Assembly (NCBI GenBank): GCA_965153355.1
Contig: OZ231126.1
Span: 2,480,001 to 2,544,000 of the forward strand
From: Flaccisagitta enflata
Lineage: Eukaryota
Reading direction: 5' to 3'
Length of the DNA stretch: 64,000 nucleotides
Shown here one piece after another: positions 435-43,095 of this stretch. Position 1 is the stretch's first letter. Every line of letters begins with the position of its first letter. A program made the translations under genes and the position numbers. The notes beneath the pieces were generated by a model. It was not told where the DNA came from. It saw nothing but the letters and a program-made list of their open reading frames with translations, and ran no database searches.

Positions 435-521
435 GACCATCATTGGATCCTTACTGTACCATTGATAAATCCATGTTCCCAACTGCAAAGGGAACGGGCT
501 TTGGATGGACTTTTCATCAAA
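435..521 (+). CDS. Exon: C-terminal part of an upstream FReD (GPSLDPYCTIDKSMFPTAKGTGFGWTFHQ)
   Basis: tttcag acceptor, gtaagt donor, phase 1-1; GFGW followed by KITLKLRR in the next exon resembles an FReD C-terminus. Confidence 0.7.
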
Positions 522-3500
522 GTAAGTCGTTTCCTTTTTCCATTTCTATTTTTTGTGGATCTCAATTCTCTTGACTCTTCTTCCGGCCATTAAATTGGTT
601 CAAAAAAGCACCGAGACCAAAAAGCATTTTTGCATTTTCAAGTGCGTCCTCGCACTTCTATAAGAGATCATGTCCGTCGGTCGGTTGGTTTGTCGGTTGG
701 TTGGTCGGTGGGTCTTTCGATCACGCAAACGTTTGAAACGCGCAAAATGGCTATTCGGACGTATTTCTTTATTCCTATCACCTTTCAAGCCATACCACAT
801 TCATTTTCATTCATTTATTCATTCATTCAATCATTCATTCAATCATTCATTCATTCATTCAATCATTCATTCATTCATTCATTCATTCATTCATTCATTC
901 ATTCATTCATTCATTCATTCATTCATCAGAAACGTTCATTCACAAATTCTTAATCAAGCTAGGCGCACTTATTGGCCATTACTTGGCCTTGTTGGTTTAG
1001 TAGTAATATTGTCCATTTTTTTTGTGCTGTACTTCTGTATAATGCCCCCACAAAGCCGCATTAACATAACGGGTTATAGAGTTGCGTGCGTGTGACAAAA
1101 AAGTAAACTGTAAAGTGCATTTTCTTCATCTTTTAGATGTGGACAAGATTACGCTGAAACTTCGGAGAAAGAAACCCGCCGAAACTTGCACAAATCTCCA
1201 AGCTCATAAATGGTTATTCTTCCGCTTTGCATTATATTAATGACAGTGGGTGTAATCTTTTCTTGTTGAACCCCGCTCCAACGGATCCGCTAACAACTGA
1301 ATTTCTCCTTTTACAGTTACTTATTCTTTGTTCCTTCTGCCAATTTTATTTCATTTCTCATATTGGCTATAATAGAATTCTGCCTATAAAAGATGAAATC
1401 TATTTGTCCCTCCCAAATCCATTAGAGCGGGATTAGACTGCATAAACTTCAATTTCAATCAGCTGCTGCCATTTATATTTACAGGGACAAATGTGCATTG
1501 GTCCCCACCCCGACAACCGTCGCACTTGACAAAATTCTCATTTTATTCAACATTGGTAAGGAGTCTTCTGATTATGCTTTTGGACACGCTTGCTACCTAA
1601 TCTGAACAACCCCATTCTCCAATTTTTCACTTTCTGTTTCTTTTCCTGCATCTTTTACTAGTAATGGCGGCTATCACCGTGAGAAAAAAAGTCGACTTTT
1701 CATTTGTTAGATCAAATCATGAGCACTTAATCAGAGAAAAATAAGACTAAGTCAAATGAGCTAGATGAACAAAAATGCTCAAAATCACACAACCAGACAA
1801 CCAGCTATACTCACTGACATGCTTTCTTGTATTTGCATGCTCATATCAAAACATTTATAAATCTATTCTATTAAAAATTGATTGAGCTAAATGAGCTAAG
1901 TGAGTTAGAATACTTAAAATTACCCTCACAGATGAGCAGGTATACTCATTGATATGCTCTTTTGTATCTGCTCTCTCTTTCTCTCTTTCTCTCTTTCTCT
2001 CTTTCTCTCTTTCTCTCTTTCTCTCTTTCTTTCTCTTTTGTATCTGCTCTTTTGATATGCTCTTTTGTATCTGCTGTATCTGCATAAAGCAAAATATTTA
2101 CCCATTTATCACATTTGAAATCAAAGAAAGAAGATTGACCTAAATGAGCTAAATGAGGTAGAATGCTCAAAAACACCCTCATAGATGCGAAGCTAGGCTC
2201 ATAAACATGTTTTCTTGTATTTGCATGCTCAAACAAACATATTTATTTTTTTTTATCCTACTTGAAATCATGATAAATAAAAAAAATTCAATATAAACTT
2301 TTTGTAAATAAATCTTTCAAAAATCAAAACGCAAAAAATATTTGTCGTAGAGCATTCTGCTTCGCGCGAAATGAAAGAGAATTATAAAATTTGATTACCA
2401 TGTCAATTTCGTTAAAAAAACCAATTGGTCGATTGAGATGCTCAACTTTTTCATATGAAAAAGAAAACCATGTTTTTCTCGAAAATGTCAAAAAGTCGAA
2501 GACTGACTTTGACTTTTTTCCCCGACAATATAAAGTTTGCATAACACGTCTATCACATGCATCGCAAAAGGGCACAGATAAGGCTTAGAAACAAGCCTGG
2601 CAACAAACGCAAGTTAAGGAAGAACAAATAAAGAAAACGTTGCAAACGGCGACGTAAATGATCTTTTGTTTTTACAGGCGGTTGCTTTGATGTACGAAAG
2701 GGGGAGGAGTTGTATATAATAGATAGAAAACCATTAATGTTGCTGCGCGATACTGGAGATGGATTAGACAAAATAACAACAATGAAACAGTACCAAGATG
2801 GATTTGAGACGGTAGGAATAGAAAATGGTTGACTTTCAGCCACTCGGTTAAGAAACAAGGTCGGATACACGACTACCCCAGTCACGTGCGGGTGGGCAGG
2901 GGCCATATTTCATGTCACTTGATCAATTGGGCATGAGCCGTGAGGCCAAAGACGGCAAAAACCCAAAAAAAGTAAAGTGTGACGGATGGACGGACCAACG
3001 GACCAACGGACGTTCCAACAGAGCGGGGTGTAGAGTCGCGTAGCACGCGACTAAAACGGCCAGGAATCTCGATGGAGAAAATTTCAATTTTAAGGGTTAT
3101 GAAAAAAAATGGACCCATCCCAGATTTTTGCACAGGGGACCTAAAAAGGCTGTAGAACAAGATTCTGATGTTCATTTTGACCTAACTTGAGCCAAAAAAA
3201 AAAAGAAACGGGTTCTAGTGCAAAAAACAGCTATTTTTCCTAAAAAAATGGCATGAAATGAAATATTTTGGCCCTTTATTTGCAGAAACATAAAGTACCA
3301 ATAGTAATTGATATTTGAGTGAATGTAGAACAATTTTTAATAGGTCTATGAGGTTCAAAAATAGCATAATGCTCAAAAATGAAGAAATGACCTAAGAATT
3401 AAAAAATCGTCAAAACTGATGATTTGGAACAGTTTCTTAGGGAAAAATATGCAGTCAGTATGAATTTCATCAATTTACTTAAAAAAACATGGCCGTGATA

Positions 3501-6500
3501 AGCGAAAAACGCAAAATTGCAATATACATATGAGATCAAAGTGCGGTTTTTGCAAAAAAATGGCTTTAGAGGGGGAAAACACTTGCATTCCTCCAGAAAA
3601 GTGTTTGTTTGGTATGGAAAAGCAATAAAATCAACCTATGTATACATAATTGTTATATATGTCTGTCTTTTTTATTGTTTCTTTCTCTCAATACTGTGTT
3701 AAAGTATATCTCTACTGGTAATCATGAATAAGGTTCCTGTTTTAATCTTTAATTTGTACTGGAATCTTTCACCTGAAAATGTAAGATCATAATAGAATAG
3801 TGTCGTTTATTTTGAAAAAAGAAGCCTGCAGATGATATGAGGGGTTTCCTGTATGTTATTTTTTTAGCAAAGAACAGTAAAAAACATGTTTTTTCTTTTT
3901 AAAGAAGCTAAACACAATAAAAAATTGAGTTCTTACCTTTCCAAAGCCATTTTTTGCAAAAACCGCATATTGCGGTTTTGCGTTTTTCGCTTATCACGGC
4001 CATGTTTTTTTTAATAAATCGATGAGATTCATACTGACAGCATATTTTACCCTAAGAAACTGTTCCAAAACATCAGTTTTGACAATTTTTTAATTTTTAG
4101 GTCATTTCTTCATTTTTGAGCATTTTAATGCTATTTTTGAACCTCATAGACCGATTCAAAATTGTTCTAGAGTCACTCAAGTATCAATTACTATTGGGAC
4201 TTTATGTTTCTGTAAAAAAAAAGTCAAAAACATTTCATTTAATACCATTTTTTGGGGGGAAAAATAGCCGTTTTTTGCAATAAAAACCGTTTCTTTTTTT
4301 TTTTTTTTGGCTCAAGTTAGGTCAAAATGAACATCAGAATTTTGTTCTACTGCCTTTTTAGGTCCCCTGTGCAAAAATCTGGGATGGGTCCATTTCGTTT
4401 TTTTTTTTTTAAGAATTTTGCAAGTGAGAATTCTGGCCGAAAAACTGCATGAAACGTGAAATTTGTGTTTATGAACAGCCTGATCATCTGAGATGGATGA
4501 ATCAATGGAATAATTGAAGAATTGGTGTGTGGAAATCATAAACGGAATGAATGGAAATGACTCAAAATAGTCGCTTGCGGGTGGCCAGGGGCTGCAATGC
4601 TCATAAATGACTCTTTCAGCCAACTTGACTTCATCAGAATTTCGTGTAAAATGATTTGAAAAAAAAACCCTTTTAATTTGGTAACATTTTCAGACATCAG
4701 CCAAAGGAATATGGATTGGGTTAGATCGTCTTGTAAAGGTGACCAAAGGTGAGACCACCCAATGAGTTATCAAAACCCATTCTATAGAAGCTAGAAATCC
4801 TTATTTCTGCAAACATTAAGCCTTTAACCAGCGTGGTACATCAGACCAGGGTACGACAAAGTGCGGGAGCATGGGAGCAATGCTCCAAGGCAGCGAGCAG
4901 TTTTGTAGGCAGCAGAGGAAAGTAAAGAGGGGTAAACAAAGAGAGGAAAAAAAAAGAGGGAAAAAGAGAAAGAAAGAGGGAAAAAAAGAGGGAAAAAGAA
5001 AAAAAAAGGAGAGAGGAAAGGAAGTAAAAACAAGAGGATCAAAAAGAAAGAGAGCAACAAAGAAGAAGAATATTGAAAAAGAAAAAAAACGACTAGAAAA
5101 TTAAGGATTGTATAGTCAGAACATCTGGTACTTCAGAATGCAGATTTATGCGTTACGAAATTTGATTAGTTGCTGCTTACAAAGTTTTGCCTTTAAAGTT
5201 CATGGTAAGAAAAAAAGCAAATGATATATAGATGTATAATTGCTGATGTATCATCTGCAGCATATAGTTTATTTCATACAATGTTTTTTATTTAATCCTA
5301 CCTATACAAGGTCAAGTGAAAGAAATAATGAGGTGTCTTTTTAAAAGATTCCTCATTCCTGCCCACAAAATTCATTAGGTTGATGTACTGCATATTACTA
5401 TCAAATTTTTTTCGCTATTGCAATCATGCGAAAATCATATGCAAAATTTGTAGGCAGCGACCAGTAGAAATTTTTTGCTCGTAGGCAGCGAAAATTTTTG
5501 TCGGACCCTGCATCAGACACTGATTAAACCAGTAGCCCAAGGGCAATATATGGTCAGCAATACCCTTTGCCCTGCATTGCGCCATAGTAAGCGAGAGGAA
5601 ACAGGCGCAGCGGCTTCAAAGGGAATAATGTACCCGCAGAGGGACTTTCATTCATCCTACCTAGCGGGGCATATTAGATGCTGACTTTGAGCCTAACTTG
5701 CTTGTTGAAGGCCTCTAAGCCAAAACAAGGCTTCAGAAAGCTGATTTCAATCCTAAGAAAGTGGACTCAAAGGTAACTAGTCATCCAAGGATCGCACATG
5801 TTCAGCGGTACCCGATGCCCTGCTTGGAGTGATAAGCTGCAAAAGTGGAGTGAGAGCAGGGCAGCGGCCCCAAAGGGCCGATGTCCTGTAGGACACAGGG
5901 GTGAATTTCCAGACGTCCTGAGAAGGCACATTTGAGGCCTTTGGGGCTACTTTTCTTGTTATTCAATGAGAACATTGAACTTTTTTCCATTTCATTGTCT
6001 ATTTTCCATGTTATTCAATCTGAATTTTTCATGGAAACATGGAAAAACTTCAATTTTCCATGTTATTCAAAAGGGATTTCCCATATTTTTAACTTCTATT
6101 AAATTATCAATGTTATTCAATGGGAATTTCACATTTTTTTTATTTCTTTATCAATTTTCCATGTTATTCAATAGGAATTTTGCATTTCTTCAATTTTCCA
6201 TGTTATTCAATAGGAACATGAGGCTCGGAGGCTTTGGTAGGGGGGGACGGACGTACGGAAGTACGGACGGACGGACGTCTGGAAATTCACCCCTGGGGCC
6301 GCTGCCCATAAAGGGTGGGAATTAGGTCATTGAGGGCTGAGATTAGGTCGGTAAGGCGTGGCTGGAGGCCTTGGTCGGAAAACTAACTTCATGGGGAAAT
6401 TGGTAGTGCTGACCAACAGGTGATTTTGTAACTTTAAACTCATGTTGAGTTTTAACATAGCGTGCCAATGTTATCTATTCCACCTCTAGCGTTTTTGTGT

Positions 6501-9500
6501 TTTTGTTGTTGTTGTTTTTTTTTTTTTTCTTTTTTTTTTCTTTTTTTTTCAGATAAATGCGATTTGACGGCGAAAATCGAAGAAAAAAGGCTGGGCGTTA
6601 GTGGAAGTCCACATTACCGCACTTATCCCCGATTCGAAGTAAAATTAAAATCCGCTGTCAAATACGAAATATCAATTCCATGTCACGCCAAAGAAATCAA
6701 AGGCTTTACAGATGGATTCTCAATAATGGAGGAACCATCCACCAAGTAAGTGATAAGGCGCTAACGGAGCTGAGTTACAATGGGCTGATTTACAGGCGCG
6801 GTACATTTCAAAATCCATTGTAAGAGATCATATTTTTCTCGGTTTGACTGTTTTGAGTCATCTTGATGCAGTGTTTTAAGATGTACCACAGACCTCCAAA
6901 AAGTATTTTCCTTTTGAGAATGGCTGGTAAGTGGTATGACAGAATGATGTTCTCTTTGGGGTCGTTTCTAGTCACAAACAATCGCGTGTTTAGATGCGTC
7001 CGTCTCTTTAAGGGGGTCTGTCCGTCCGTCTGTCGGTCCGTCCGTCTGTCAGTCCGTCTGTCAGTACATCTGTCAGTCAGTCCGTCCGTCCGTCCGTTAC
7101 GCCTGTGCAGAAACCGCGTTTCTCGGCTGTTTTTGGCCAAGGTGAGATCCCCTACTGAAACATATGATCAACCAACATGTTTTGAGAGCCCCCTTTACTT
7201 GTTAGTCGTTTCGCTGTCTGTTTGTCCATCTGTCACTGTAAATATGTCACATGATCAATATACGCAAAGACACAGTCCAGACGCATCGTTGCCCGGTCGG
7301 GTTTGTAAACGGGCCACTCGGTCGCTCGCGGCCACGGGACAGTTGAAATTCTAGAATGTGTTCACGCTGTGAACACATTTCACGGGGACAAACGCGTTTT
7401 TGGTCGTCAGTAGAAACACGCCCTCGATGAAACACGCCCGTTTTCTTTCTCTCAGACAAACGTTTCAAATTGGTGGTAGTCGTTGTCCGGCTTCTTGGTG
7501 GTTTGATTCCTGCCAACAACCAACTGCAAGACGGTAAAAGTGGTCGATTACATTGCACAACACTTGCATTACACATCATCACATTACGCAACACTTGCAC
7601 TGCAAAATATTACATAGCACTTTTTTTGTATTGCACTACATGCATTGCAGCCGGTTATCCTATATTTCTTACGATCGTAAGTTCATGGGTTAGAAGGCTT
7701 ACAATCGTAGGTTTTCTGTACTCTTTTATAATGGGAAAATGGGTTTTTCCTTCATAACCCAAAAAGCGCTAAATCGATTTTTTTCATTTCTTGGTTCAAT
7801 ATTGTTAGTGAGACCACTAATCTTAGCCAAAAGGAATTGTCATCGCCACTCTTCTATAAACATGTGAAATATGATGATGAATGTGGCTTTCTACAATGCT
7901 TACGTTTCTAGGTTTTCTTGCCTAGAAAGCTTACGATTCTAGAAACTTGCATAGAAAGCTTACGATTCTAGGTCTTTGTTGATATGGACTCGGAATCAAT
8001 TGCCGCTGTCAGGTTGTTTTGTGTTTATGTGCGTCCTCCCATATCTATACGGGGATGTGTCTGTTGGTCTGTCGATTGATCTGTCAGTTGGTTAGTTGGT
8101 TGGTTGGTCCCTCAATCACGCAAATGTTTGCAATACTATTAAATCCAAGCTCTTTCATCACACAAGCAGCGCCAATCGATTCTCATTCATTTATTCATTC
8201 ATTCATTCATTCATTTATTAATTCATTTATTCATTCATACATACATTTTTCAGAAAAAAAATATAAACGTATAAACAACATTCATTCAAAAAAATCAATC
8301 ATTCGCATTTGTTAAGAGGATAAGTCTGCTAAATTTGGATACACTAGCCAGGAGTGTCAAGAATGTATAGCTTTTAACTGATAAGGACATTGTTTCAAGA
8401 GTGTTTCTCATACAAATTTCAAATTTCATTGCATTTTCCTTGACTCATTTTCCTGGTTAGGGTACAAATTATTCCCACAACAAGTCTAAACCAAAATTAA
8501 GACAAACTTAGTTGGACAGAGACAGAGAGCAACCGACATAATAAAGGACAAAAAGAACAATGGAATGACAGTATGGCAAGGATCAATTCTAAGAAAACAT
8601 TTCATTGTTCTAGCTTCCAACCTCATCCAGTCTAGCTATGTTTTAAGACAGTAATTGTTGTTGAATGGATGAATATCAAACAACGCCAGACACATGGCAA
8701 GACAGTTGTGGACGGTTGGGCAGGGGCAATAATGCAACAGGCCGCTTAAGCAACATATGGTCAGCGGTTCCCGTTGCTTATTGTTTTTTATCATAGTTTG
8801 GAAAGAATTTGGTGAATGGGCCAGCGGCCCCGGAGGGGCTAATGACCAATGATTCCACAGAGGGTAATTTTGTCATGGGTAGTCCGACTAGGTTTGAGGC
8901 CTGAGAGGGCTGATTTGAGGCTATGGTGTGTTGATTCAAAAATTCTGATTTGAGGCCTGGGAGGGCAAATTTGAGGCCTGGGAGGGCATATCAATAGTCT
9001 TTGAGGGCTGATTTGAAATGTGAAAGAGCTGATTTTATAAACTTTTGAAAATAGATTTGCTATCAAATGCCATTGAGATGGTCTATGTCTCCAATCATGA
9101 TGAAAGACGACATCTCCGAGTTGCTTACACCTCTATTCCGGAAAATCATTGGCTACAGATGGTCTCAAAGTGTATTTGAACTGCAAAAATTACTGGGGAG
9201 ACCATCATGGGAAGATCTTGTTGACACAAGAAATAGTCGCAAAAGCGTTAGATGGTCAGCGGTACCCGTGCCCTGCTCAAGTAGGTTGTGGTTGAAGTTG
9301 AGGGGGAAGCAGGGCAGCGGCCCCTAAGGCCCCCATATGGGGAATTTTCTCCTCCTCCTCCTCCGTACCCCCCTCTCCCCCCAACCTCCAGGCCCATATT
9401 TCAGCCTCGATGCCGATATCCCAGCCTTGAGGCCCAAATCCCAGTCTTGAGGCCCAAATCCTTTGAGACTGGGATTTAGGCCTTGGGGTTGGGATTTGGA

Positions 9501-10045: not shown

Positions 10046-10121
<76 letters not shown>

Positions 10122-13100
10122 CAACAACCTCCATGGAAGGAAGAGAGCAAAGAGTACGCATCTGTGGATCGAATTTTGGCCATGTTTATTGCATCTGAGA
10201 TGAAAAATATCACTCTGATATTAAAGTTGTTTTTAAAAAGTCCCGGCTCTTGCTAGTCAAAGTACTTGCCTGACATGGTTGATGAAAAAAATTCAAAACC
10301 CGCGTACCATTTCCTTCCACTTACACTACCGTGACAAGTTTTTCTATATTTTGTTTAAAAAAAAATAAAGAAAAAAGAAAAAGTGATTCTCTCCTAAGAC
10401 TTGGAGACTAGCCGCTTTAACTAGCAACGAGTGGCACGAGATATTTCCTATGATTAGGGTGGGAAAGATGAAACAAAAAATTTATAGGATTTTTAATGGT
10501 TTAGTCGCAAGCTTTCGTAAAAGTGTCCATAAATAGAAAGAGGTACCCTTGGGCCTTGGGCACCCCCGTCATTCCTTGACCACTGGTTAAAGAATGAAGA
10601 TTTGTTTCGTTGTCCAGGTATCCAACTTCTGATAAGCCTCATTGGGCAGACGTTGGAGATGATCTGCCCATGAAATGGGATTCTGAACAAAAACTGACTG
10701 TCACCATCGGAGGAAAATCTCCTTTTTCCGATTGCCAACAAAATGTTCAACTGCGCAACTGTCCATTGGGTAGGAATAACAAATACCCCGGAGACGGAAT
10801 AGTGCGTTTTTGGACGGACGGACCAAGCTTATTGTAGGGTCGCTTATCTAGGACTAAAGAATGTAAAAGAAGTGGAGAATACACTTATATCATTATTCTA
10901 TTGGTTGCACACGTATACAGTACTGTTGCAATTTAGCCTCTTTAGTCGCGTGCAATTGACTCGAGAGGTTGTTGTGTCTCCATCTGTCAGCCCGTCCATC
11001 TAATGTCTGTTGACCTGTTTGAATGGCGATCCGTATTTGTTTTGCTGCCCCTTTCCAACTACTACTTGAGGATTTTCTTAATTGAACAAGGTAAGAATTC
11101 CGGGTTTAAATCAGGTGGCACAGCGACGGAGAGTAAAGGTCAAATCACGACAATTTTGGTCGATAAGAAACGATACGACGTCCAATGTTATGGCGAGGAC
11201 AAAATTGCCATGTTTGGAATAAAGAATGCGGTCTTTGCAAATCGCTTACACCCTCAACCAGATGGCAGAGCCCCAAAAGGTTTCTATTTCTTCCTCATTT
11301 CTCTCCTCATTGATGGCTTAAGATCTTTTGCTCTTCTTCTGCATGTGGTTCATTTTGCTTTCTCTTCAAAGCCAGGGTCAGGGACATGGAGAGAACTGAT
11401 GCTCCCCCCCCCCCCCACACTAGCCTTTCAACTAGAAATGATGCGCATAGTAACTAGCCAGTGATCGTGACGGCTCACAAGGCCCTCTTCCATTTTTTCA
11501 GTTTGGGTATACCGGGTCATCAATCTGGACTGGGAAAAAGTGTTAAGCTTTTGCTCCTAGCTGCTTCTCCTCACTGGTTTGGAATTTGTTTTCTTTTATA
11601 GTAATACATTTGACGTTTTTTGTATCAAAATTTTATTGGTCTGAGTTAAATACTTTTTCCACAACATCAATTTAAAGAAAAACAAGCCTTTTCTGATACA
11701 GCTAAAATTAGCCTTAATTCATCAAAACTGTTGTTTCTTGAATTTGCTCTTATTTCTCACTGGATTGAGCAGCAAATGTCAGATTTGTATTGGTTGAAAA
11801 TGTATTAATGAATTTTGAAAAACATCGATAATTTGAGACTATTTAAGCATTTGTAGCTCAAACTGATCAAAGATGAGGGAAATAGTTTTGATAAAAAAAG
11901 GATAAATTGAGCTTAAGCCACAATACTTGTATCACTTCAAATTGATGTTGTGGACAAAATATTTGACACAGACCAATGAAATTTTGACACAAAAAACGTC
12001 AAACATAGTACTACATAGGAAAATTAATTCCAAGTCCCTGTGAAGAAGTATCTGGGGGTGAAAGCTTAATACTTTTTCCCAATCCAGATTGATGACCCTG
12101 TAGTGAGTGATATTGTTCCACTTATCATACCGCATAACTTTTTAAGTTTTTAAGCAAAACATTACTTCCTCCTGCGAAATGATTTTGATGCTTTCAATTT
12201 TTGTTTATTTTTTTCGTTCGTGCATCTGAAATTGACACTCCACATTCTCACCAACAAACACCCATCAACAGATATAAAAACATCACTTTCTTACTACTGG
12301 ATGTATTCTTTGGATTTTGTTCACGATTTGACTTCGTCTGCAACGCCAATTCTCTTCACTTCATTGGATGTGGATGTGTATGACCCAAGCTCCACAACGC
12401 CGAAGACGCTCAAATACTCCAATTTTGTCGTGGGTGACTCTTCCACGGATTACCAATTGGGTCCTGACTTATGCTTCAAAACCAACTTTGATGACACCTT
12501 CTCAATCAGAAGAAATGGGGTAATGACACAGTTACAGAATCTAGATGCGCAGTTGAACCCCACTTGTGCGCTTTTTAACTGATCCAAGAATAAAAAATCT
12601 CAGGGATATCAAAGGCCTAACATAATCTATCTGTTTGGCGGATTTTCGTTATTCGCCAGTGCGATGTAAAGGAAACAGAAAAAGAAAGAAAAGGACGAAG
12701 ACCCTGTATCCCATATAGGCGGATTTTCGGATTTGCCGGGACTGTATTTGGAGGATGTTGCCGACGGATGGATACACTGACCGACAAATAAACCATCGGA
12801 CCAACAGACCAACCGACCATCACAGTAGTGTGTAGTCCAGTCATGTGACTGAAAATTACAGTCCTTAGCCAATTTCTGGTAGGAATGAAATACCGTTTCC
12901 AGTTCCTTTCATACTTCATTTTCCAATTGACAATTGACAATAAATTCCACAGAAATTTAAGGACCACAAAAGTGGCAAGAATTTCAAGTGGTGGAATGTT
13001 AAAGACTCTTGTGACGCGTCACATCAGGTACTGTGACCAATCAACATCCAATTTTCCTTCAGTTTCTTTTTGTGTTTTCTAGTATCAGTATGCACTGTGA

Positions 13101-15254
13101 TCAAATTTCCCATATTTTTTGCAACTTTGCATGTATTTATAAGTAAGGATAAACGTTGATTAATTTGAAATTCCAAGTAGAAGGGGTTAAAGATTAATGA
13201 TTTCATGAAGTTTCAGCATCGTTAAGCAGGTATCAACAGAACAAGGCCGGATACACGGCTATCTTAGTCGCATAAGGGTGGGCAGGGGTGGCGAAAAAAA
13301 GCAAAGTGTAACGGACCGACCGACGGACAGATGGACAGAGCGGGTTGTAGAATCGCGTGAACCCGACTGAAAATACTGTTGAAGGATGGTTAGAACTCCC
13401 GCACTCATTGTTAAACTTGAAAATTAAAATCATATTCATAAGCTTTTATTGATATGACATTATCATTAAGGTTCAAATTGGAAAAACGTCGGTGCCAATA
13501 TATTTCCCTACTCATACTGATGTTGGTTGGAACGATTGGGGAATTGGAACAACAAATAAAAAAAGCAAAATCATAATGAAGGTGAGATACAGTTTAACCC
13601 TTTTTAGCAAATGGGGAAATGGAATCACAAAGTAAAACAAAATCATAATGAAGGTGAGATACAATTTGACCCTTTTTAGCGATTGGGGAAATGGAATAAC
13701 AAAGAATTACAAAATCATAATAACATCTTTTATTCGTCATAAGCGACAGAGCATACAACACCATACGACTAACTAGAAAAAAAAATATAATGGGAGAAAG
13801 ATTTAAGGAAAAAAAATGTAGGATTACATTAGCGTCAGCTTGTACAAGTGTCCAAGCGTTGGATTGCGCAGCGACGGGAGCTGTTGAAGGAATCTCGTAG
13901 AATTCTTCTCGAAGATTTTGGTGAGCGACGGGTATCCAAATGAGATGCGCAAGTACCGCACACTTTCCCAGCGGTTGTACGTGAAGACTCGACGTATACA
14001 ATCGTTAAGGGCGACGTTCATAGAGAGCATTTGATTGACAGAATATTGAATAACGTCAGAAGCATAAGTTAAATGGGGAACACAGGTAGCAGGTAAGGTA
14101 CACTTTAACCCTTTTTAGCGATTGGGGAAATGGAATAACAAAGAATAGCAGAATCATCATGAAGGTGAAATACAGTTTAACCCTTTTTAGCAACTGGGGA
14201 AATGGAATAACAAAGAATTACAAAATCATAATGAAGGTGAGGTACAGTTTAACCCTTCTTAGCGATTGGGGAAATGGAATAACAAAGAATAGCAAAATCA
14301 TCATGAAGGTGGAATACAGTTTAACCCTTTTTAGCGACTGGAGAAATGGAATACCAAAGAATGACAAAATCATAATGAAAGTGAGGTACAGTTTAACCCT
14401 TTTTAGCGATTGGGAAATGTAATAACAAAGAATAACAAAATCATCATGAAGGTGAAATACAGTTTAACCCTTTTTAGCAATTGGGGAGATGGAATAACAA
14501 AGTGTAACAAAATCATCATGAAGGTGAGATACAGTTTAACCCTTTTTGGGCAGCGGCCCCGAAGGTGTCGATGACCTATGATTTCACACATTTGGGGAAT
14601 TTTCTCCTTCTCCTCCTTCTTCTTCATCCCCCCTCCCCTCAAATCCCAGTCTCGAGGCCCAAATTCCAGTCTCGAGGCCCAAATTCCAGTCTCGACACCC
14701 AAATATTAGTCTTGAGGCCCAAATCCCAGGACTTTGGCCTTTAGGCTAGGATTTGGGCCTCAAGGCTGGGATTTGGGCCTCGAGACTGGGATTTGAGCCT
14801 CGTGACTGGAGGAGAAGGAGAAAGTATAACAAAATCATCATGAAGGTGATTTGAAGCAGATGTAAAGGGACTTACAAATGACTTAAATGTTTCAGCTCCT
14901 TTCACACCATTAAGTGCCTTTCTCTCCCTCTCTTTGTTTGACAGGTTCACACCAAAGCAAGTGCCTGTACACCCCCTTCTGCTATGTCGATAGAAACCCT
15001 TTGTCCTGGTAGCATGATAAACACGCACGGATTGGCTGTTGTACAAAATGTCGATCATCGGTGCAACATGGTTATGAAGGTTCCATGCGTAGGCGGTGCT
15101 GTAAAACGTGGTAAGAATCGGTATCTAAGCTAGTGCTTTATATTTGTGTTACTACTCATTGAAAATTGTAGGTCCTCGATAGATGTTGATTTAGCAGTCT
15201 GTCAATGGCGGTGTGGTCATCTTTTGCATCGTCGTTGGCGTCATCATAGTTATC

Positions 15255-15328
<74 letters not shown>

Positions 15329-16329: not shown

Positions 16330-16400
<71 letters not shown>

Positions 16401-19400
16401 AAATTTATGAGTTATGAGTTACCATAGCATTGCATGAAAAAACTTTTTCTTAGATACAGCATGACAAATCATAAAACTCATTGGATTTGACACAAAAGTC
16501 TGGATAAGGGTCAAGAGCGTTAGTTTGAACTGGTTTTCCCTTTACAACAACCATTTGATTGGTGCACTGTTTTTAACTCTAATTTTCCATTAAACTGTCA
16601 CTGTCAGTCTGTCCTTTTGTCTTCCCGTTTTGCTGTCATTTTTCTTTATTTCTCATAATACAATCTCAGCATCACACTTTTTAGCTTTAAGTTTGTTTTT
16701 AGTCGCGTGCACGCGACTCTACAACCCGCTTTGTTGGTCCGTCGGTCCGTTGGTCCGTTGGTCCGTCGGTCAGTCCGTCCGTTCGTCCGTCCGTCACACT
16801 TTACTTTTTTACTATACTTTAAGTTATTTCTAGTCATTTTAAGTCATTTTAAGTAATTCTAAGTCATTTTAAGTAATTCTAAGTCATTCTAAGTCATTCT
16901 AAGTCATTCTAAGTCATTCTAAGTCATCCTAAGTCATTCTAAGTTATTTTAAGTCACTTAAGTCAAATAGGTCAAAGTGGTCATTTCAGTCAATTTACGT
17001 CTTTTTAAGTCATTTAAAGTTGTCTTGAGTCATTTTAAGTCATCATGAGTCAATAAAAGTCATCTTAAGTTATTTATGTCTCGCACGCGACTTATAGGTG
17101 TTGGCCTTGTTCAATCAGAGGCATTGCAAAAAATCTGCTTCAATCTTATTTTTTCACAATTCAAAAATGTCACTGACAAGTTTTTTCCTCACTTTTCTTC
17201 CCTCGAGGCACATCTTCTGAACCCACTATCATGCAATTTTTAGCTTGTGTACAGATGTGGAGTATTAATTTAGTGTGCCAAATATTTGTTTGTCAATAAT
17301 ATTTTGAGCGATTTTGCATACATTTTATAATTCATCTGAATTTTTTATACCTATTCATAAAAAAAAGAAAAACATTCAATTACCAATTAAATTTGGAAGT
17401 GGTGGATGCTATGGTAAAAAAAATCAGTTAGCCAAATAGCATTTCATGATAACGGTGCCCCATGATAAAGGCCAAATTTGGAGGGTCTTAGTATGGTTCT
17501 TAGTATTACTTTGAATTTTCCGCTTATATTTACTCAGGATGAACTAGGATCCAGCTTCAAAGAAATCTTTCTTGTGGCGCTTTTTGAAAAAAATATAAAA
17601 TTGATAATTTTTCATCGCATGATGCACCCAGATTTTAGAGGGTTGTTAGAAAACATTTTTGGATAGCATATTTGAATTCTTGATGAAATTTCCTTGCATT
17701 TGATAGGTCGCACTATATATTTTTCAAAAGAGATCAAATTTTCAATTTTTTTTGTAACGGTGGCTTAAAAATCAAAAATTTTATTTCTTTTCAAAAATAT
17801 ATAGTGCGACCTATCAAATGAAAGGAAATTTTATCAGGAAATCAAATATGCTATTTAAAAAGATCTTCCAACAACCTTAAAAATTCTGACTTCAAAATAA
17901 GAGAAAAAACAATCAATTTTGGATTTTGTTCAAAAGGTGCCACAAGAAAGATTTTTTTGAAGCTGGATTCTTGTTCAGGAGGTCCATATTGAGTGTAAAC
18001 AAGCGGAAAATCCAGAGTAATACTGAAAACCACCTGGCGGTAGGTTGAACGAATGGTGCATGGGGCCGTTATCAAGGGGCAGGGCTGTATTACTCTGGAT
18101 TTTCCGCTTGTTTACACTCAGTATGGACCTCCTGAATAAGAATCTAGCTTCAAAAAAATCTTTCTTGTGGCGCCTTTTGAAAAAAAAACAAAATTGATTG
18201 TTTTTTATCTTATTTTGAAGTCAGAATTTTTAGGGTTGTTAGGAGATCTTTTTAGATAACATATCTGAAATCCTGATAAAATTTCCTTTCATTTGATAGG
18301 TCGCACAATATATTTTTCAATAGAAATGGAATTTTTGATTTTTAAGCCACCGTTACAAAAAGTAACGGTGGCTAAAAAATTGAAAATTTGATCTCTTTTA
18401 AAAAATATATAGTGCAACCTATCAGACGAAAGGAAATTTCATCAGGAATTCAAATATGCTATCTAAAAAGGTTTTCTAACAACCCTCTAAAATCTGGATG
18501 TAATATAGGATAGAAAATTATCAATTTTGGATTTTTTTCAAAAAGCGCCACAAGAAAGATTTCTTTGAAGCTGGATCCTAGTTCAGGAAGTCCATCCTGA
18601 GTAAATACAAGCGGAAAATTCAGAGTAATACTAAAAACCACCTGGCGGTAGTTTGGACGGATGGTGAGTGGGAAGATATTAGATTTTTGCATATTTTAGG
18701 CTAAAATGTTCTTTGAATCGAAAATCATCATGTCTGAGAGTAATAAGGCATTACTTTTTGTGGCTTAGGATATCTGGAAGTTCGGTAAGTGCTTTTTCCA
18801 TTCTTTCTCAAATTCTAACGTTTCTTTCTCATGAGCTAAATCCTTATTGAAAGAACAAGGCCAAGTAGGCCAATAAGGTGCGACGTGTGGATCGTCGAAC
18901 GAATGCGTTACCAACCGACCAACAGACCGACCAACGGACACAGCCAGTTATAGAGGTGCCTTGTCGCACTTAAAAAAATAACGAAACAAGGCCGGATACA
19001 CGGCTACCCCAGTCGCGTGTGGGTGGGCAGGAGCTGTATTTGAGGTCACTTTATCATTTGGGCAGGAGCAGTGAGGCCGAAGACTGCTAAAACCCCAAAA
19101 AAAAGTTGAGTGTGACGGACTGACGGACAGATGGACAAAACGACGGACCGACAGACGGACCGACAGACGGACGGATGGGCGGACCGACAAAGCGGGTTGT
19201 TGAGTCGCGTAGCACGCGACTAAAAATAACAAACAAAAACTAAAGCCAGTCCAACTGTCCAAGTTATGGTTATTTCAGGGCATTTTAATGACTACGCGTA
19301 TGAAGGGGCGTTTTGGGCTGGACTGCAGTTACTTCACGAATTAAATCAAGGAGTAACAAGTATAAAATGGCAGGTAGAACTCATAGAGGGACAGCAACAA

Positions 19401-21543
19401 AGCCAACAACTGAAACAACAACAACTCATCAACCACAGAGGAACCTTAGGGTCAAGTTCATTGACGAATTCACCCATCTTTTTTTTTTTTTTTTTTTTTT
19501 TTTTTTGCGCCCTATCCTTGACAAAATCAAGTCATTGTTGAGGCTCTTTTTTATGAAAAAGAAATATCCAAGGTTTTGAGCTTCATTTTGCTTAGAAAGT
19601 CTTAAAGGCTGGTTGGTCTCATTTCCTGTCAGTACAATCGTCATGTCATGAAATTTATTCTAATGAAATTTTCTTTTATTAGAGGTTTTAAAGATTTTCT
19701 TACATATGTTCGAGCACATGCCAATGCAAATGCACACCAAACATAACCATAGACATGCAATTATGGACTTTTTATTCCTTTCATCGTGCTTAAAACTGTC
19801 TTAGGGAGCTTGAGGTCCAAGCATTTACAACATAGCCGGATACACGGCTATCCTAGTCGTGTGCGGGTGGGCCGGGGAAGTGATAGAGAAGGGGCATTTG
19901 GGCAGTAGCAGTGCAATCAAAATGCTCAAAAACGTCAAAAATTAAAGAGGAGACCGACCTTCCAACCGACAGACCGACAGACGGACTAAATGGGGTGTAG
20001 AGTCGCGTAGCACACAACTAAAAATTTAGTTAAGCAAGGCCGGATACACGGCTACCGAAGTCGCGTGCGGGTGGGCAGGGGCCATATTTGAGGTCACCAG
20101 ACCATTTGGGCAGGAGCAGTGAGGTCAAAGAAATAAAATCATAAAAGAAAGTAAAGTAAGACCGACCGACCAACCGACCGACGGACAAAGCGGGTTGTAG
20201 AGTCGCGTGCACGCGACTAAAAATGAATATCTTTTTTTTCTTCCTCTTCTAGGCTTTTATCCAGGCCTACACAATCAAAGATCCCAGAAACATAAGGGAC
20301 ATCCCAATGGAGTACAGGGTGAAGATTGGTGATAACTCAAACAATTACCAACTGGGGGTCTCTGTCAAAAAAGACAAAGGGGGATCTGAATGCCACGATC
20401 GTTTTTCAATTTTGGATGGCGTAAAATTTGACTGTAAGCACTTCTTTCAATACCTGCTTCAATATTTCCTTCAGCTTTAAAATTCAAATTTCTAGTCGTG
20501 TCTCTACACCCCGCATTGTCTGTCCGTCCGCCTATTGGTCCGCCCTCAGTTCGTCGGTCCATCACATTTTACTTTGTATGGCGTTTCTCAGTCCCATTTG
20601 TGCAACTTTAGAGCGATTGAAAAGGTTACTTGGGCATTTGGGCAGGAACAGCGAGCTCAAAAAGCTCAAAAATGCCGAAAAAGAAATAGCTTTAAAAGTG
20701 TTTGATGGTCAGCAGTACCCGTTGCCCCTATGTCAGTGTACGTGGATGAGTAATGGTGAGAGGGGCAGCGGACCCCAAAGGGGCTGATGACCTATGCTCA
20801 GTAAGTTTGTATACGTAAGGCTGGGATTTGAGCCTTAATGCTCGGATTTAGGCCTCAAGGCCGGAGTTTGAGCCTTGAGGCTGAGATTTTAGCCTTAAGG
20901 TCGGGATTTGAGCCTCGAGGCTGTGACTTGAGCCTCAAGGCTGTGATTTGAGCCTTGAGGCTGAGGTTTGAGTCTCATGGCTGGGACTTGAGCTTTTAAG
21001 CTGGGATTTGAGCCTTGAGGCTGGAGTGTGAGCCTCAAGACTTGGATTTGAGCCTTGAGACTGGGAATTGAGCCTTGAGGCCATTATTTGGGCGTCAAGG
21101 CTAGAATTTGGCCCCAAGGCTGGGATCTGAGCCTCAAGGCTGGGATATGAGCTTCAAAGGGGGTGGACAGATAAAGAAGCAGAAGAAGAAGAGGGATGAT
21201 TTGCCTTATGTGTGACAGTAATGGTCATCTGTCGGACGGGCGGAAGGACAAATTGGGGTGTAGACTGTAGAGTCTCGTAGCACGCGACTAAAGAAACCAT
21301 ATATTCTTGCACATTTTCCAGATACTAAAAACTGGTGGCACGATGGCACTGTTGAAGACAAATATATTGAAGACATAAATTACAGTGAAATGCCATTCGC
21401 TTGGACACAGTATTACCCAAGTATAGCTAAACCTGGAGTTCAAGATCGGCAGGAGTATTGCAGTTTGGGTTACAAAAGTCTCGTCCATACAGAAATCAGG
21501 ATATTCATGGATTCTTCCACCACAGCTTTTGTTCCCTCTGCAT
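435..21543 (+). CDS. Spliced gene (5'-incomplete) encoding a tandem multi-fibrinogen-related-domain protein; 18 exons, about 747 codons in this interval
   Basis: Exons 435-521, 1137-1212, 1485-1555, 2678-2811, 4694-4748, 6553-6745, 7456-7533, 10618-10769, 11091(or 11115)-11279, 12272-12519, 12953-13027, 13471-13581, 14945-15110, 15683-15774, 18769-18784, 19279-19373, 20253-20433, 21322-21543. All have AG/GT ends, matching phases and no stop. FReD motifs recur three times in order: YQDGF..GIWIGLDRL..WWFDSC; YWMYSLDFVHDLT..YSNFVVGD..KWW..C..GWNDWG; FG..FWAGLQLLHEL..IGDNSNNYQL..NWW..YKSLVHTEIRI. Confidence 0.85.
1137..1212 (+). CDS. Exon (NVDKITLKLRRKKPAETCTNLQAHK)
   Basis: Pyrimidine tract plus ttttag; donor gttatt gives phase 2 and completes Trp with the next exon. 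Confidence 0.6.
1485..1555 (+). CDS. Exon (WDKCALVPTPTTVALDKILILFNI)
   Basis: tttacag acceptor, gtaagg donor, phase 2-1, open frame. Confidence 0.65.
1653..2472 (-). mobile_element. Interspersed element, inverted paralogue of ~55058-57370
   Basis: tttactagtaatggcggct..gtgagaaaaaa is the reverse complement of 57335-57370; 2325-2470 is the reverse complement of 55060-55195 joined to 56687-56700. Confidence 0.8.
2678..2811 (+). CDS. Exon, FReD1 (..LDKITTMKQYQDGFET)
   Basis: tttttacag / gtagga; YxxGF fibrinogen motif; phase 1-0. Confidence 0.8.
3057..4439. mobile_element. Foldback/MITE with ~500-bp inverted arms
   Basis: Ends cggccaggaatctc / gagaattctggccg; ggacccatcccagatttttgcacagggg (3111) is mirrored at ~4363-4391; arms extend to ~3570 and ~3945. 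Confidence 0.85.
4694..4748 (+). CDS. Exon, FReD1 (TSAKGIWIGLDRLVKVTK)
   Basis: ttttcag / gtgaga; matches the FReD G-x-W-l-G-L motif; phase 0-1. Confidence 0.85.
6553..6745 (+). CDS. Exon, FReD1 (DKCDLTAKIEE..YPRFEV..YEISI..DGFSI)
   Basis: Long T tract plus cag / gtaagt; Y..F.V....Y.l pattern; phase 1-2. Confidence 0.8.
7456..7533 (+). CDS. Exon, FReD1 signature (QTFQIGGSRCPASWWFDSCQQPTAR)
   Basis: tctctcag / gtaaaa; WWFDSC matches the fibrinogen WWFxxC signature; phase 2-2. Confidence 0.85.
10618..10769 (+). CDS. Exon, FReD1 end and linker (YPTSDKPHWADVG..SDCQQNVQLRNCPL)
   Basis: tgtccag / gtagga; phase 2-1; open frame. Confidence 0.75.
11091..11279 (+). CDS. Exon, FReD2 N-part (GQITTILVDKKRYDVQCYGEDK); alternative in-phase acceptor at 11115
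   Basis: G..T.I......V.C pattern typical of an FReD N-terminus; phase 1-1; acceptor position ambiguous. Confidence 0.7.
11512..12100. mobile_element. TA-flanked MITE (Tc1/mariner-type)
   Basis: ta-ccgggtcatcaatctgga ... tccagattgatgaccctg-ta; inverted arms about 160 bp. Confidence 0.8.
12272..12519 (+). CDS. Exon, FReD2 core (YYWMYSLDFVHDLT..KYSNFVVGDSSTDYQL..DTFSIRRNG)
   Basis: caacag / gtaatg; strong FReD core pattern; phase 1-0. Confidence 0.9.
12953..13027 (+). CDS. Exon, FReD2 (KFKDHKSGKNFKWWNVKDSCDASHQ)
   Basis: ccacag / gtactg; NG|KF junction and WW..C motif; phase 0-0. Confidence 0.8.
13471..13581 (+). CDS. Exon, FReD2 C-terminus (..DVGWNDWGIGTTNKKSKIIMK)
   Basis: ttaag / gtgaga; GWxxWG..K..MK FReD terminal motif; phase 0-0. 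Confidence 0.75.
13533..14850 (+). repeat. 72-bp tandem array copied from an exon 3' end plus donor site, interrupted by a LINE fragment and a family B element
   Basis: Unit cgattggggaaatggaataacaaagaatagcaaaatcatcatgaag-gtgagatacagtttaaccctttttag, about 10 copies; the first copy overlaps exon 13471-13581. Confidence 0.9.
13722..14088 (-). mobile_element. 5'-truncated non-LTR retrotransposon (L2/CR1-group-like) 3' end
   Basis: Minus-strand frame TCVPHLTYASDVIQYSVNQMLSMNVALNDCIRRVFTYNRWESVRYL..* resembles the post-RT C-terminus of LINE ORF2, followed by a short 3' UTR with AATAAA; inserted within one 72-bp unit. Confidence 0.7.
14945..15110 (+). CDS. Exon, linker and FReD3 start (VHTKASAC..MKVPCVGGAVKR)
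   Basis: Strong pyrimidine tract plus gacag / gtaaga; phase 0-1; open frame. Confidence 0.75.
15417..15730 (+). repeat. ~80-bp tandem repeat (3-4 degenerate units) ending at an exon acceptor
   Basis: actgtgtgaaactgaaacagagctaa...ccccttaaatc repeated; (t/c)tag(g/t)tgt(g/a)aaa occurs at 15432, 15586 and at the real acceptor 15680. Confidence 0.75.
15683..15774 (+). CDS. Exon, FReD3 (GVKVFDSGKTTTSPLNRDKLYVGLKGPSTSQ)
   Basis: gtctag / gtaaag; phase 1-0; open frame. Confidence 0.6.
17449..18665. repeat. Two adjacent ~600-bp palindromes (four alternating copies of a ~300-bp unit)
   Basis: gataacgg..cccat (17449) is mirrored at 18059-18072; second palindrome 18088-18665 is centred on ccaccgttac-aaaaa-gtaacggtgg. 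Confidence 0.85.
18769..18784 (+). CDS. 16-nt micro-exon (DIWKF-G)
   Basis: ggcttag acceptor, perfect gtaagt donor; phase 0-1 bridges the flanking exons and restores the FG motif before the FW.GL exon. Confidence 0.6.
19279..19373 (+). CDS. Exon, FReD3 (GHFNDYAYEGAFWAGLQLLHELNQGVTSIKWQ)
   Basis: tttcag / gtagaa; G.FW.GL..lH.L motif; phase 1-0. Confidence 0.85.
20253..20433 (+). CDS. Exon, FReD3 (..YRVKIGDNSNNYQLGV..DRFSILDGVKFD)
   Basis: Pyrimidine tract plus ctag / gtaagc; IGD...Y.L and D.fS..G.KF motifs; phase 0-1. Confidence 0.88.
21322..21543 (+). CDS. Exon, FReD3 C-terminus (YTKNWWHDG..FAWTQ..GYKSLVHTEIRIF..)
   Basis: ttttccag / gtaaga; WW and YKSL..TE.RI motifs; phase 1-1. Confidence 0.85.
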
Positions 21544-42972: not shown

Positions 42973-43095
42973 CGATCCGGAAAGGTTACGATATAACTCG
43001 CCAAGGGGCCGGCGAAAGATGTCAATGGGTTATACCACCTGGTGGTACAGGAATCAAAAGACTTCATGAATGCCATTTTGGAGACACGGAAGGAG
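42973..43095 (+). CDS. Candidate exon resembling an FReD N-terminus (IRKGYDITRQGAGERCQWVIPPGGTGIKRLHECHFGDTEG)
   Basis: atttcag / gtacgt; open phase 1-1; I-P-x-G...C..DTEG pattern. Confidence 0.55.

What the first reader, a model, noticed from the sequence alone, without database searches (positions are those of the whole stretch)
435..21543. Hidden gene for a protein with at least three, probably four or more, tandem divergent fibrinogen-related domains
Seen: 18 short exons, most of them missed or only fragmentarily captured by the ORF track, splice in phase without stops and repeat the FReD motif series three times; the first two exons look like the tail of a further upstream FReD. Established: most FReD proteins (ficolins, tachylectin-5, FREPs, angiopoietins, tenascins) carry a single C-terminal FReD. 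Inference: this is a multi-FReD lectin or pattern-recognition protein. Its domains are very divergent from each other, have different intron positions, and lack the usual FSTxDxDND calcium loop, which suggests old duplications and altered ligand binding.
Basis: partly seen in the sequence, partly recalled or inferred. Interest (0 to 1): 0.8.

Follow-up and report, generated by a model that had tools for sequence, protein, structure and literature searches.

The report
Hidden gene with tandem fibrinogen-like domains
A many-exon gene that ORF lists miss probably lies here and encodes at least three very divergent fibrinogen-related (lectin-type) domains in a row, an uncommon but already known kind of architecture.

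Summary
I rebuilt 12 (alternatively 13) + strand exons between 435 and 21543. They join in phase into 561 (605) codons without a stop.

Standard tests failed. Pfam Fibrinogen_C hit nothing, whether in joined frames, 100 ORFs or 12 trimmed exons. Single exons found no FReD in the PDB.

More sensitive tests support the reading:
- A FReD model built from unrelated bacterial-type domains scores the spliced product 13.8 bits, with one match in each of three repeats. It beat 0 of 3000 shuffles and 0 of 2994 decoy chains.
- Repeats 2 and 3 are significantly alike.
- A profile made only of window exons finds 8 FReD chains among 10 PDB hits. A decoy profile finds none.
- For exon 12274-12519, 30 of 30 ESM Atlas neighbours are Fibrinogen_C clusters.

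The calcium loop and the canonical cysteines are mostly missing. Proteins with several FReDs are already known (PMC1242226). Verdict: a real, divergent variant of a known kind, of moderate interest.

The parts
435..521 (+). Exon X1. It starts with 2 bases that complete a codon, so the gene continues upstream of the window. It may be the tail of an earlier repeat.
   Evidence: Acceptor ...ttcag|G, donor AAA|gtaagt. It was chosen by the FReD-blind gene finder.
2678..2811 (+). Exon X2, the start of repeat 1 (like the N-terminal subdomain).
   Evidence: Acceptor ttttacag|G, donor ACG|gtagga. In phase with X1 and X3.
4694..4748 (+). Exon X3, repeat 1, carrying the W-x-G-L...L-x-x-V-T motif (the FWLG region of a FReD).
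   Evidence: Acceptor ttttcag|A, donor AAG|gtgaga, score 6.7. Matches positions 81-99 of my FReD model.
6553..6745 (+). Exon X4, repeat 1, carrying the Y-x-x-F-x-V...Y-x-I motif region.
   Evidence: A 30-nt pyrimidine tract followed by cag, and donor CAA|gtaagt: the best splice pair in the region. Chosen by the FReD-blind gene finder.
7456..7533 (+). Exon X5, repeat 1, carrying C-x(3)-WWFDSC. This is the only repeat that keeps both cysteines around the WW motif.
   Evidence: Acceptor tttctctcag|A, donor ACG|gtaaaa. Its ORF is the third best of 2330 against my FReD model, at positions 173-182.
10618..10769 (+). Exon X6, the end of repeat 1 and the linker. An alternative donor lies at 10801.
   Evidence: Acceptor cgttgtccag|G, donor TGG|gtagga. 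In phase with X5 and X7. The 10801 variant is shown.
10991..11090 (+). Optional exon X6b. It is either the start of repeat 2, reached from the 10801 donor, or the first exon of a separate gene beginning at the ATG at 11003.
   Evidence: Acceptor ccatctgtcag|C, donor AAG|gtaaga, score 6.9. The stretch from the ATG at 11003 has a hydrophobic start and is in phase with X7.
12272..12519 (+). Exon X7, the core of repeat 2. It holds both the YW...H-D-L-T motif and the Y-x-x-F-x-V-G-D...YQLG motif in a single exon.
   Evidence: Acceptor atcaacag|A (weak, -1.5), donor GGG|gtaatg. In the ESM Atlas, 30 of 30 neighbours are PF00147 clusters, score 0.95. Its ORF is the second best of 2330 against my FReD model.
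12953..13027 (+). Exon X8, repeat 2, carrying K-F...WW...C.
   Evidence: Acceptor ttccacag|A (weak, -0.9), donor CAG|gtactg. Phase 0 at both ends.
14945..15110 (+). Exon X9, the start of repeat 3 (like the N-terminal subdomain, with a V-x-x-R-C-N-M motif).
   Evidence: Acceptor ctctctttgtttgacag|G, donor GTG|gtaaga. Part of it, 14994-15110, was chosen by the FReD-blind gene finder.
19279..19373 (+). Exon X10, repeat 3, carrying the FW-x-GL...H-E-L motif.
   Evidence: Acceptor ttatttcag|G, donor CAG|gtagaa. Its ORF is the best of 2330 against my FReD model (E 0.74).
20253..20433 (+). Exon X11, repeat 3, carrying Y-x-V-x-I-G-D...YQLG and F-S-I...G-x-K-F.
   Evidence: Acceptor ttcttcctcttctag|G (score 8.8), donor ACT|gtaagc. 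It aligns with X7.
21322..21543 (+). Exon X12, repeat 3, carrying the WW motif and a C-terminal part that ends like ...T-E-I-R-I. It ends at a donor with one base left over, so the gene may continue.
   Evidence: Acceptor cattttccag|A, donor CAT|gtaaga. Chosen by the FReD-blind gene finder.
45820..46259 (+). Possible last exon of the same gene: an SRCR domain followed by a stop codon at 46257-46259.
   Evidence: Pfam SRCR PF00530, E 3.8e-10, 40.4 bits against a cut-off of 26.1. Acceptor ccctacacag|C. It is in phase with X12, and the joined frame stays open for 751 codons. That it belongs to the same gene is not shown.

Best explanation
The + strand from 435 to 21543 carries part of a real, intron-rich animal-type gene. 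Its 12-13 short exons encode at least three tandem, highly divergent fibrinogen-related (FReD-like) domains.

What is shown: the exon chain, its open frame, the kinship of repeats 2 and 3, and weak but consistent FReD similarity of all three repeats.

What is inferred: the product is a secreted or surface recognition protein that presents several FReD-type binding modules on one chain. Canonical FReD lectins instead gain multivalency by oligomerising single-FReD subunits.

The calcium loop is absent from all three repeats and the canonical cysteine pairs are incomplete. The usual calcium-stabilised acetyl/glycan pocket is therefore probably altered or lost, and ligand binding, if any, must work differently.

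The gene is open at both ends. It continues upstream of the window and may end in the SRCR exon at 45820-46259.
For: 1. Gene structure.
- The 12 exons have yAG/GT borders and join into 561 codons with 0 stops; the other frames have 31 and 34 stops. A 13-exon variant is open for 605 codons.
- The FReD-blind gene finder gave its best chain here: 29.5, against -1.4 to 12.2 in five other strand/regions.
- Few other in-phase exons fit into the gaps: 0-3 candidates per gap.

2. FReD similarity of the spliced product.
- My model (55 domains from proteins fetched) scores the chain 13.8 bits, E 2.3e-6 for one sequence.
- Three stretches match, at residues 63-177, 240-295 and 403-461.
- 0 of 3000 shuffles reach that score; the best is 9.5. 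0 of 2994 decoy in-phase chains reach even 10 bits; the best is 5.0.
- The three best of all 2330 ORFs of the window, on both strands, are exons X10, X7 and X5.

3. Profile comparisons. hhalign of the chain against the FReD alignment gives P 0.002, 0.006 and 0.037 at three places. A profile of the three repeats gives probability 55%, P 1.2e-4.

4. Internal repeat. Repeats 2 and 3 score 67 by Smith-Waterman. Shuffles average 29; 0 of 5000 reach 67 and the best is 59.

5. PDB searches with profiles made only of window exons.
- Profile A2: both of its 2 hits are fibrinogen beta chains.
- Profile A3: 8 of 10 hits are FReD chains, the best at E 0.067.
- A decoy profile of five non-chain ORFs, picked for likeness to FReD, gave 1 hit and no FReD.

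6. ESM Atlas. For exon X7 alone, 30 of 30 hits are PF00147 clusters, score 0.95, sharing 198-199 of 256 features.
Against: - Pfam PF00147 gave no hit in three X-joined frames of 1-23700, in 100 + strand ORFs at E<=10, or in 12 trimmed exons.
- phmmer of four single exons against the PDB gave 24, 8, 2 and 1 hits, none of them a FReD.
- Exon X12 in the Atlas gave Tannase at 0.86, with recognition 2156, below the usual 2300. X7 has recognition 2168.
- Chaining ORF-level model hits was not significant: 7.0 bits against a permutation median of 11.4.
- At ORF level the X7-X11 likeness (22.7 bits, E 0.3) lies within the noise of 267 reciprocal pairs.
- Repeat 1 is not significantly like repeats 2 or 3.
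- With lax splice thresholds, in-phase chains exist everywhere in the window.
- Several exons were first noticed because they looked like FReD. The profile tests are therefore not free of selection.
- There is no RNA evidence and no fold evidence. The fragment model had pLDDT 49.1.
- Three acceptors or donors are weak.
Confidence: 0.68

Rival explanations
1. The repeats belong to a tandem array of two or three separate small genes, each encoding a single FReD-like domain, as is usual for FREP/ficolin-type clusters. They are not one multi-domain gene.
For: - A candidate first exon runs from the ATG at 11003 to the strongest donor of the region at 11090. It has a hydrophobic start and is in phase with X7.
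- If their donors are not used, the frames of X6, X8 and X12 reach stop codons 22, 2 and 5 codons further on.
- There is no transcript evidence for the junctions between repeats.
Against: - No comparable ATG-plus-donor first exon was found ahead of repeat 1. Ahead of repeat 3 the only candidates lie inside a satellite.
- The junctions 10769->12272, 13027->14945 and 15110->19279 are all in phase.
- Only 168 nt separate the stop at 10835 from the ATG at 11003, and no AATAAA lies between them.
- A stop within a few codons is what this base composition gives by chance.
Confidence: 0.17
2. The exons are remains of old FReD genes that are no longer expressed, or a pseudogene. The in-phase chain is assembled from relics and chance splice-like sites.
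For: - The sequence is too divergent for Pfam.
- The calcium loop and most canonical cysteines are lost.
- Atlas recognition values are low.
- In-phase chains are easy to find with lax thresholds.
- No protein of 129-2000 residues in the 5.8-billion-protein collection shares words with X12.
Against: - 561-605 codons without a stop, including exons of 82, 73, 64 and 60 codons. I estimate about 6.5% of random codons in this base composition are stops.
- Splice consensus is kept at all 24 borders.
- Repeats 2 and 3 remain significantly alike at protein level.
Confidence: 0.08
3. A real gene, but its repeats are not homologous to FReDs. The likeness is an effect of picking ORFs that looked like FReD.
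For: The individual scores are low (5.7, 2.3 and 2.1 bits per repeat). The exons were chosen partly by eye. The Pfam and PROSITE-type criteria are not met.
Against: - The Atlas search with one unspliced exon gave 30 of 30 PF00147 clusters at 0.95.
- The decoy profile selected for likeness to FReD found no FReD in the PDB.
- The best of 2994 decoy chains reached only 5.0 bits.
Confidence: 0.05

Closest known systems
Anopheles gambiae FREP/FBN proteins with two or three FBG domains (PMC1242226, section 6; I read the search listing, the start of the abstract and two passages)
   Same: Several fibrinogen-like domains on one chain, some of them incomplete. They belong to an invertebrate gene family thought to act in recognition.
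   Different: The mosquito domains are found by standard FBG models. The ones here escape Pfam, lack the calcium loop and are split by introns at different places. Kinship with the mosquito genes was not tested.
Canonical single-FReD proteins: fibrinogen beta and alpha-E C domains, tenascin-R/C; and from recall ficolins, tachylectin-5A and snail FREPs
   Same: The central FW-x-G...H-x-L-T and Y-x-x-F-x-V...Y-x-L motifs and the WW motif occur in the same order and at similar spacing. These chains are the top PDB hits of the window-exon profile.
   Different: - One FReD per chain, with multivalency gained by oligomerisation (recalled).
- Here the G-G-G-W-T strand region is shortened.
- The D-x-D-x-D calcium loop is absent.
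- The cysteine pairs are incomplete.
Short, hard-to-detect FReDs of placozoan intelectin-like genes (PMC6321704, passages of section 9)
   Same: FReD-related domains that canonical domain models miss and that needed profile-profile methods to be seen.
   Different: Those proteins carry a single short FReD and are about 250 residues long. No direct comparison was made here.
Multi-FReD proteins in the public protein collection, found with a bacterial-type FReD profile
   Same: Two to four FReDs in tandem. Examples: P0010, P0011, P0013, P0014, P0016, P0017 and P0018 with two; P0125, P0126 and P0127 with three or four.
   Different: Their domains are canonical: they keep G-G-G-W-T, D-N-D-N-D and N-C...G-G-F-W-Y-x-x-C. 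Their organisms are unknown. They score 50-340 bits per domain, against 2-6 bits here.

Membership tests
Fibrinogen-related domain (Pfam PF00147 Fibrinogen_C) | A match to the Pfam model above its cut-off of 22 bits | tested here: inconclusive
   No hit for three X-joined frames, 100 + strand ORFs or 12 trimmed exons. The spliced protein could not be handed to the Pfam tool. My own FReD model gives 13.8 bits on the spliced chain.
Fibrinogen-related domain | Conserved central motifs (the FWLG...H-x-LT region and Y-x-x-F-x-V...Y-x-L) in the right order and spacing | tested here: met
   All three repeats align to model positions of about 66-140. The window-exon profile aligns to exactly this region of fibrinogen beta and tenascin-R. 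The Atlas gave 30 of 30 PF00147 clusters for exon X7.
Fibrinogen-related domain | PROSITE-type signature W-W-[LIVMFYW]-x(2)-C-x(2)-[GSA]-x(2)-N-G (the pattern is recalled, not taken from a call) | tested here: not met
   Read from the spliced translation. Repeat 1 has WWF-x-x-C but fails at the later positions. Repeats 2 and 3 have WW followed by N or H, and the cysteine is absent or displaced.
Fibrinogen-related domain | Two conserved disulfide pairs: one in the N-terminal subdomain and one flanking the WW motif (recalled) | tested here: not met
   From. Repeat 1 keeps the pair around WW but only one N-terminal cysteine. Repeat 3 has N-terminal cysteines but none around WW. Repeat 2 has one cysteine after WW.
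Fibrinogen-related domain | A calcium-binding D-x-D-x-D loop before the WW motif (recalled; present as D-N-D-N-D-type in my model consensus) | tested here: not met
   No such loop in any repeat. The segment is 15-20 residues shorter than in the model (alignments).
Fibrinogen-related domain | The FReD fold | not testable with these tools
Exon X7 with alignment A3 gave pLDDT 49.1 and pTM 0.37, too poor for a fold search.
SRCR domain (Pfam PF00530), for exon 45820-46259 only | A match above the cut-off of 26.1 bits | tested here: met
   40.4 bits, E 3.8e-10, profile positions 7-91 of 100.

The most novel reading that the evidence does not exclude
One long transcript encodes a single-chain recognition protein with four or more degenerate FReD modules, none of which has the calcium site, and ends in an SRCR domain. 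It would be the founder of a lineage-specific FReD subfamily that standard domain models and gene callers do not see. In that case invertebrate FReD repertoires would be systematically undercounted.
Probability: 0.3. Interest if true: 0.55.

Novelty: new variant of a known kind. Interest (0 to 1): 0.42.

Why it matters
FReD proteins are a main family of invertebrate recognition molecules, and their counts come from domain models. This locus shows a probably intact gene whose FReD-like domains fall below Pfam detection and whose short exons are missed by ORF lists. Repertoires may therefore be incomplete.

A chain of several FReD modules without the calcium site would be a useful natural test of which parts of the fold are needed for binding. 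The architecture itself, several FReDs on one chain, is already described, so the gain is incremental.

Tried and rejected
RNA evidence
- The look-up of sequencing runs listed four marine metatranscriptome runs of one study, holding 0.07-0.08 of the sampled words, and one polyA RNA run of the source organism.
Nothing was laid.
- The small shares are no evidence. They may come from the 72-bp satellite, but that is an inference.

Whole genome and earlier notes
- No whole genome is held for the window.
- There are no earlier notes on it.

Family and homology searches with exons
- Pfam on joined frames, ORFs and trimmed exons found no PF00147.
- PDB phmmer with single exons found no FReD.
- The search for homologous proteins with X12, longer proteins: none.
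- Atlas with X12: Tannase 0.86, treated as chance.

Tests inside the window
- ORF-level self-comparison: the X7/X11 pair is within the noise.
- An amino-acid composition score did not separate even the real SRCR exon (0.8) from noise.
- Colinear chaining of ORF-level model hits was not significant.
- The candidate exon 11115-11279 was dropped for poor splice sites.
- The exon alignment A5 for the WW/C-terminal region was too ragged to search with.

Building the FReD reference set
- A search with P0004 residues 160-372 found only P0004 itself.
- Profile A1 also carried a Cys-rich repeat, so many of the 150 returned proteins are not FReDs.

Other
- A metagenome scan with X7 gave one locus, L133. 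It shares an 8-residue pattern in a bacterial-looking frame and is a chance hit.
- AlphaFold2 of exon X7 gave pLDDT 49.1, so no fold search was run.
- No tRNA genes are in the window.


Full report
**Setting.** The window is eukaryotic DNA rich in introns and repeats. It has 29-52% G+C, and 36% of it matches other parts of the window. No whole genome is held for it. Stop-to-stop ORFs are short on both strands.

**The observation.**
Position 435 follows ...ttcag and 521 precedes gtaagt; 21322 follows ...ttccag and 21543 precedes gtaaga.
- Working inwards I obtained 12 + strand exons, listed under parts. All have a yAG acceptor and a GT donor.
- Joined, they give 1686 nt that read as 561 codons without a stop. 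The other two frames hold 31 and 34 stops.
- A variant uses donor 10801 and adds exon 10991-11090, which has the strongest donor of the region. It is also open, at 605 codons.
- I could not reproduce 18 exons. Few further in-phase exons fit the gaps: 0-3 candidates per gap, mostly inside repeats.

**Is the chain more than chance?**
- In favour: a gene finder that uses only splice scores, open frames, phase and a weak composition term gave its best chain on the + strand of 1-22000. The score was 29.5, from 40 candidate exons. The five other strand/region combinations scored -1.4 to 12.2, from 11-24 candidates. That chain contains 435-521, 6553-6745, 7456-7533, part of 14945-15110, the 20253 acceptor and 21322-21543.
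- Against: with thresholds as lax as my weakest sites (acceptors at -1.5 and -0.9), in-phase stop-free chains of 957-1838 nt exist in all five other strand/regions. Here the longest is 3078 nt.
- Phase consistency therefore counts for little by itself.

**Standard tests for FReD failed.**
- Pfam found no Fibrinogen_C in three X-joined frames of 1-23700, in 100 + strand ORFs with 50 - strand controls at E<=10, or in 12 trimmed exons.
- The tool itself works. The SRCR exon at 45858-46256 scored E 3.8e-10 once a VC-repeat flank was trimmed. It had been missed in the bulk scan, so flanking junk can hide real hits.
- phmmer of single exons against the PDB gave 24, 8, 2 and 1 hits, none of them a FReD.
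- A word-based search of 5.8 billion proteins with exon X12 found nothing.

**An independent FReD model.** Spliced sequence cannot be given to the family or fold tools, so I brought FReD sequences into the script box.
- A 16S primer pattern gave genome handles.
- PF00147 matched in 83 of 401 genomes of one bacterial phylum, mostly over the first 45-60 model positions only.
- The best locus gave protein P0001 and a few relatives.
- A profile search of 1.84 billion representatives returned 150 proteins.
- From these I cut 55 full domains and built a model of 211 positions.

**Results with that model.**
- Against all 2330 ORFs of the window on both strands, the three best are exons X10, X7 and X5. 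Their E-values of 0.74, 1.1 and 2.5 are in themselves what chance gives.
- Chaining ORF-level hits was not significant.
- The spliced chain scores 13.8 bits (E 2.3e-6 for one sequence). Three separate stretches match, at residues 63-177, 240-295 and 403-461, all aligned to the central part of the model.
- None of 3000 shuffles reaches this score; the best is 9.5.
- None of 2994 decoy in-phase chains, from the - strand and the downstream + strand, reaches 10 bits; the best is 5.0.
- hhalign gives P 0.002, 0.006 and 0.037 at the three places. A profile of the three repeats gives probability 55%, P 1.2e-4.

**Internal repeats.** Repeats 2 and 3, taken as spliced, are significantly alike. Their Smith-Waterman score is 67; shuffles average 29 with standard deviation 5, and 0 of 5000 reach 67 (the best is 59). 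They share features beyond the general FReD consensus, for example G-D-x-S-x-x-YQLG and F-S-I. Repeat 1 is not significantly like either. At the level of single ORFs the likeness is within the noise.

**Evidence from unspliced window sequence only.**
- A profile of three exons (A2) found two PDB sequences at E<=10, both fibrinogen beta chains, aligned at the Y-x-x-F-x-V...YQL motif.
- A profile of five exons (A3) found ten. Eight are FReD chains: fibrinogen beta at 0.067, tenascin-R twice at 0.11, fibrinogen-420 at 0.24, and tenascin four times at 1.1-1.4. The other two are an antibody chain and a helicase.
- The exons had partly been chosen for looking like FReD, so I ran a control. I took the five non-chain ORFs that best match the same region of my FReD model, aligned them (A4) and searched. 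The result was one hit, a dynein chain, and no FReD.
- The ESM Atlas search with exon X7 alone (82 residues) returned 30 of 30 hits in Fibrinogen_C clusters, score 0.95, with 198-199 of 256 shared features. The tool states that 0.95 is reached by about 1 in 100 shuffled proteins.
- Exon X12 gave no such result. Both exons have low recognition values (2156 and 2168).

**What the repeats lack.** Read from the translation:
- none has the D-x-D-x-D calcium loop;
- the segment before the WW motif is 15-20 residues shorter than in the model;
- only repeat 1 keeps both cysteines around WW;
- the G-G-G-W-T region is shortened in all three.

The intron positions differ between repeats.

**One gene or several?** The junctions between repeats are in phase, and no first exon was found ahead of repeats 1 and 3. 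However, the stretch from the ATG at 11003 to donor 11090 has a hydrophobic start and is in phase with X7. A separate gene for repeat 2 therefore cannot be excluded.

Exon X12 ends at a donor with one base left over. The next recognisable exon on this strand is the SRCR exon 45820-46259. It has a good acceptor and a stop codon, and it is in phase, giving 751 open codons. That is a one-in-three coincidence, and linkage is not shown. Only 24 candidate exons lie in the 24 kb between them.

**Literature.**
- PMC1242226 (search listing, start of abstract, two passages of section 6) reports Anopheles FREPs with two or three FBG domains, many of them incomplete.
- The start of the abstract of PMC2429915 (search listing only) speaks of FREPs with one or more FBG domains.
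- PMC6321704 (passages, section 9) describes short FReDs in placozoans that canonical models miss.
- PMC7588048 (three passages) held nothing on multi-FReD proteins.
- One search for FReD together with SRCR (listing only) does not let me say whether that combination is in print.

**Verdict.** A real gene with at least three tandem, very divergent FReD-like domains is the best reading (about 0.68). The main open points are whether it is one transcript, whether it is expressed, and whether the fold holds. It is a new variant of a known kind and of moderate interest.

Noticed in passing
45820-46259 (+): An exon encoding an SRCR domain (PF00530, E 3.8e-10) that ends in a stop codon. The bulk Pfam scan missed it until a VC-dipeptide repeat flank was trimmed. 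It is in phase with exon 21322-21543.
   Followed up: partly
13537-13721 and 14099-14547: A 72-bp satellite (2.5 and 6.2 copies, 85-87% matches) inside the proposed intron between 13027 and 14945. It may account for the 7-8% of sampled words held by marine metatranscriptome runs. That link is an inference and was not tested.
   Followed up: no
9466-9603, 14640-14729, 20817-21157: A family of 20-bp tandem repeats (TGGGATxTGGGCCTCAAGxC-like) present in both orientations. Its translations produce long spurious ORFs.
   Followed up: no
3107-3525 vs 3967-4402; 17540-18060 vs 18133-18666: Pairs of inverted repeats whose ORF translations are 79-87% identical. They look like hairpin or MITE-type insertions within the proposed introns.
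   Followed up: no
2849-3056, 18979-19239, 19962-20229, 22873-23100, 63089-63429 and others: A dispersed SINE-like element in both orientations, with translated copies 64-78% identical. ARAGORN finds no tRNA gene in the window.
   Followed up: no
42973-43095 (+): A candidate exon with good splice scores and phase 1 at both ends. It could sit between exon 21322-21543 and the SRCR exon. It has no family assignment.
   Followed up: no
Loci L121-L132 and proteins P0010-P0157 (not the window): PF00147 matches occur in 83 of 401 genomes of one bacterial phylum, mostly over the first 45-60 model positions only. Many proteins found with a bacterial-type FReD profile carry 2-4 complete FReDs in tandem.
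   Followed up: partly
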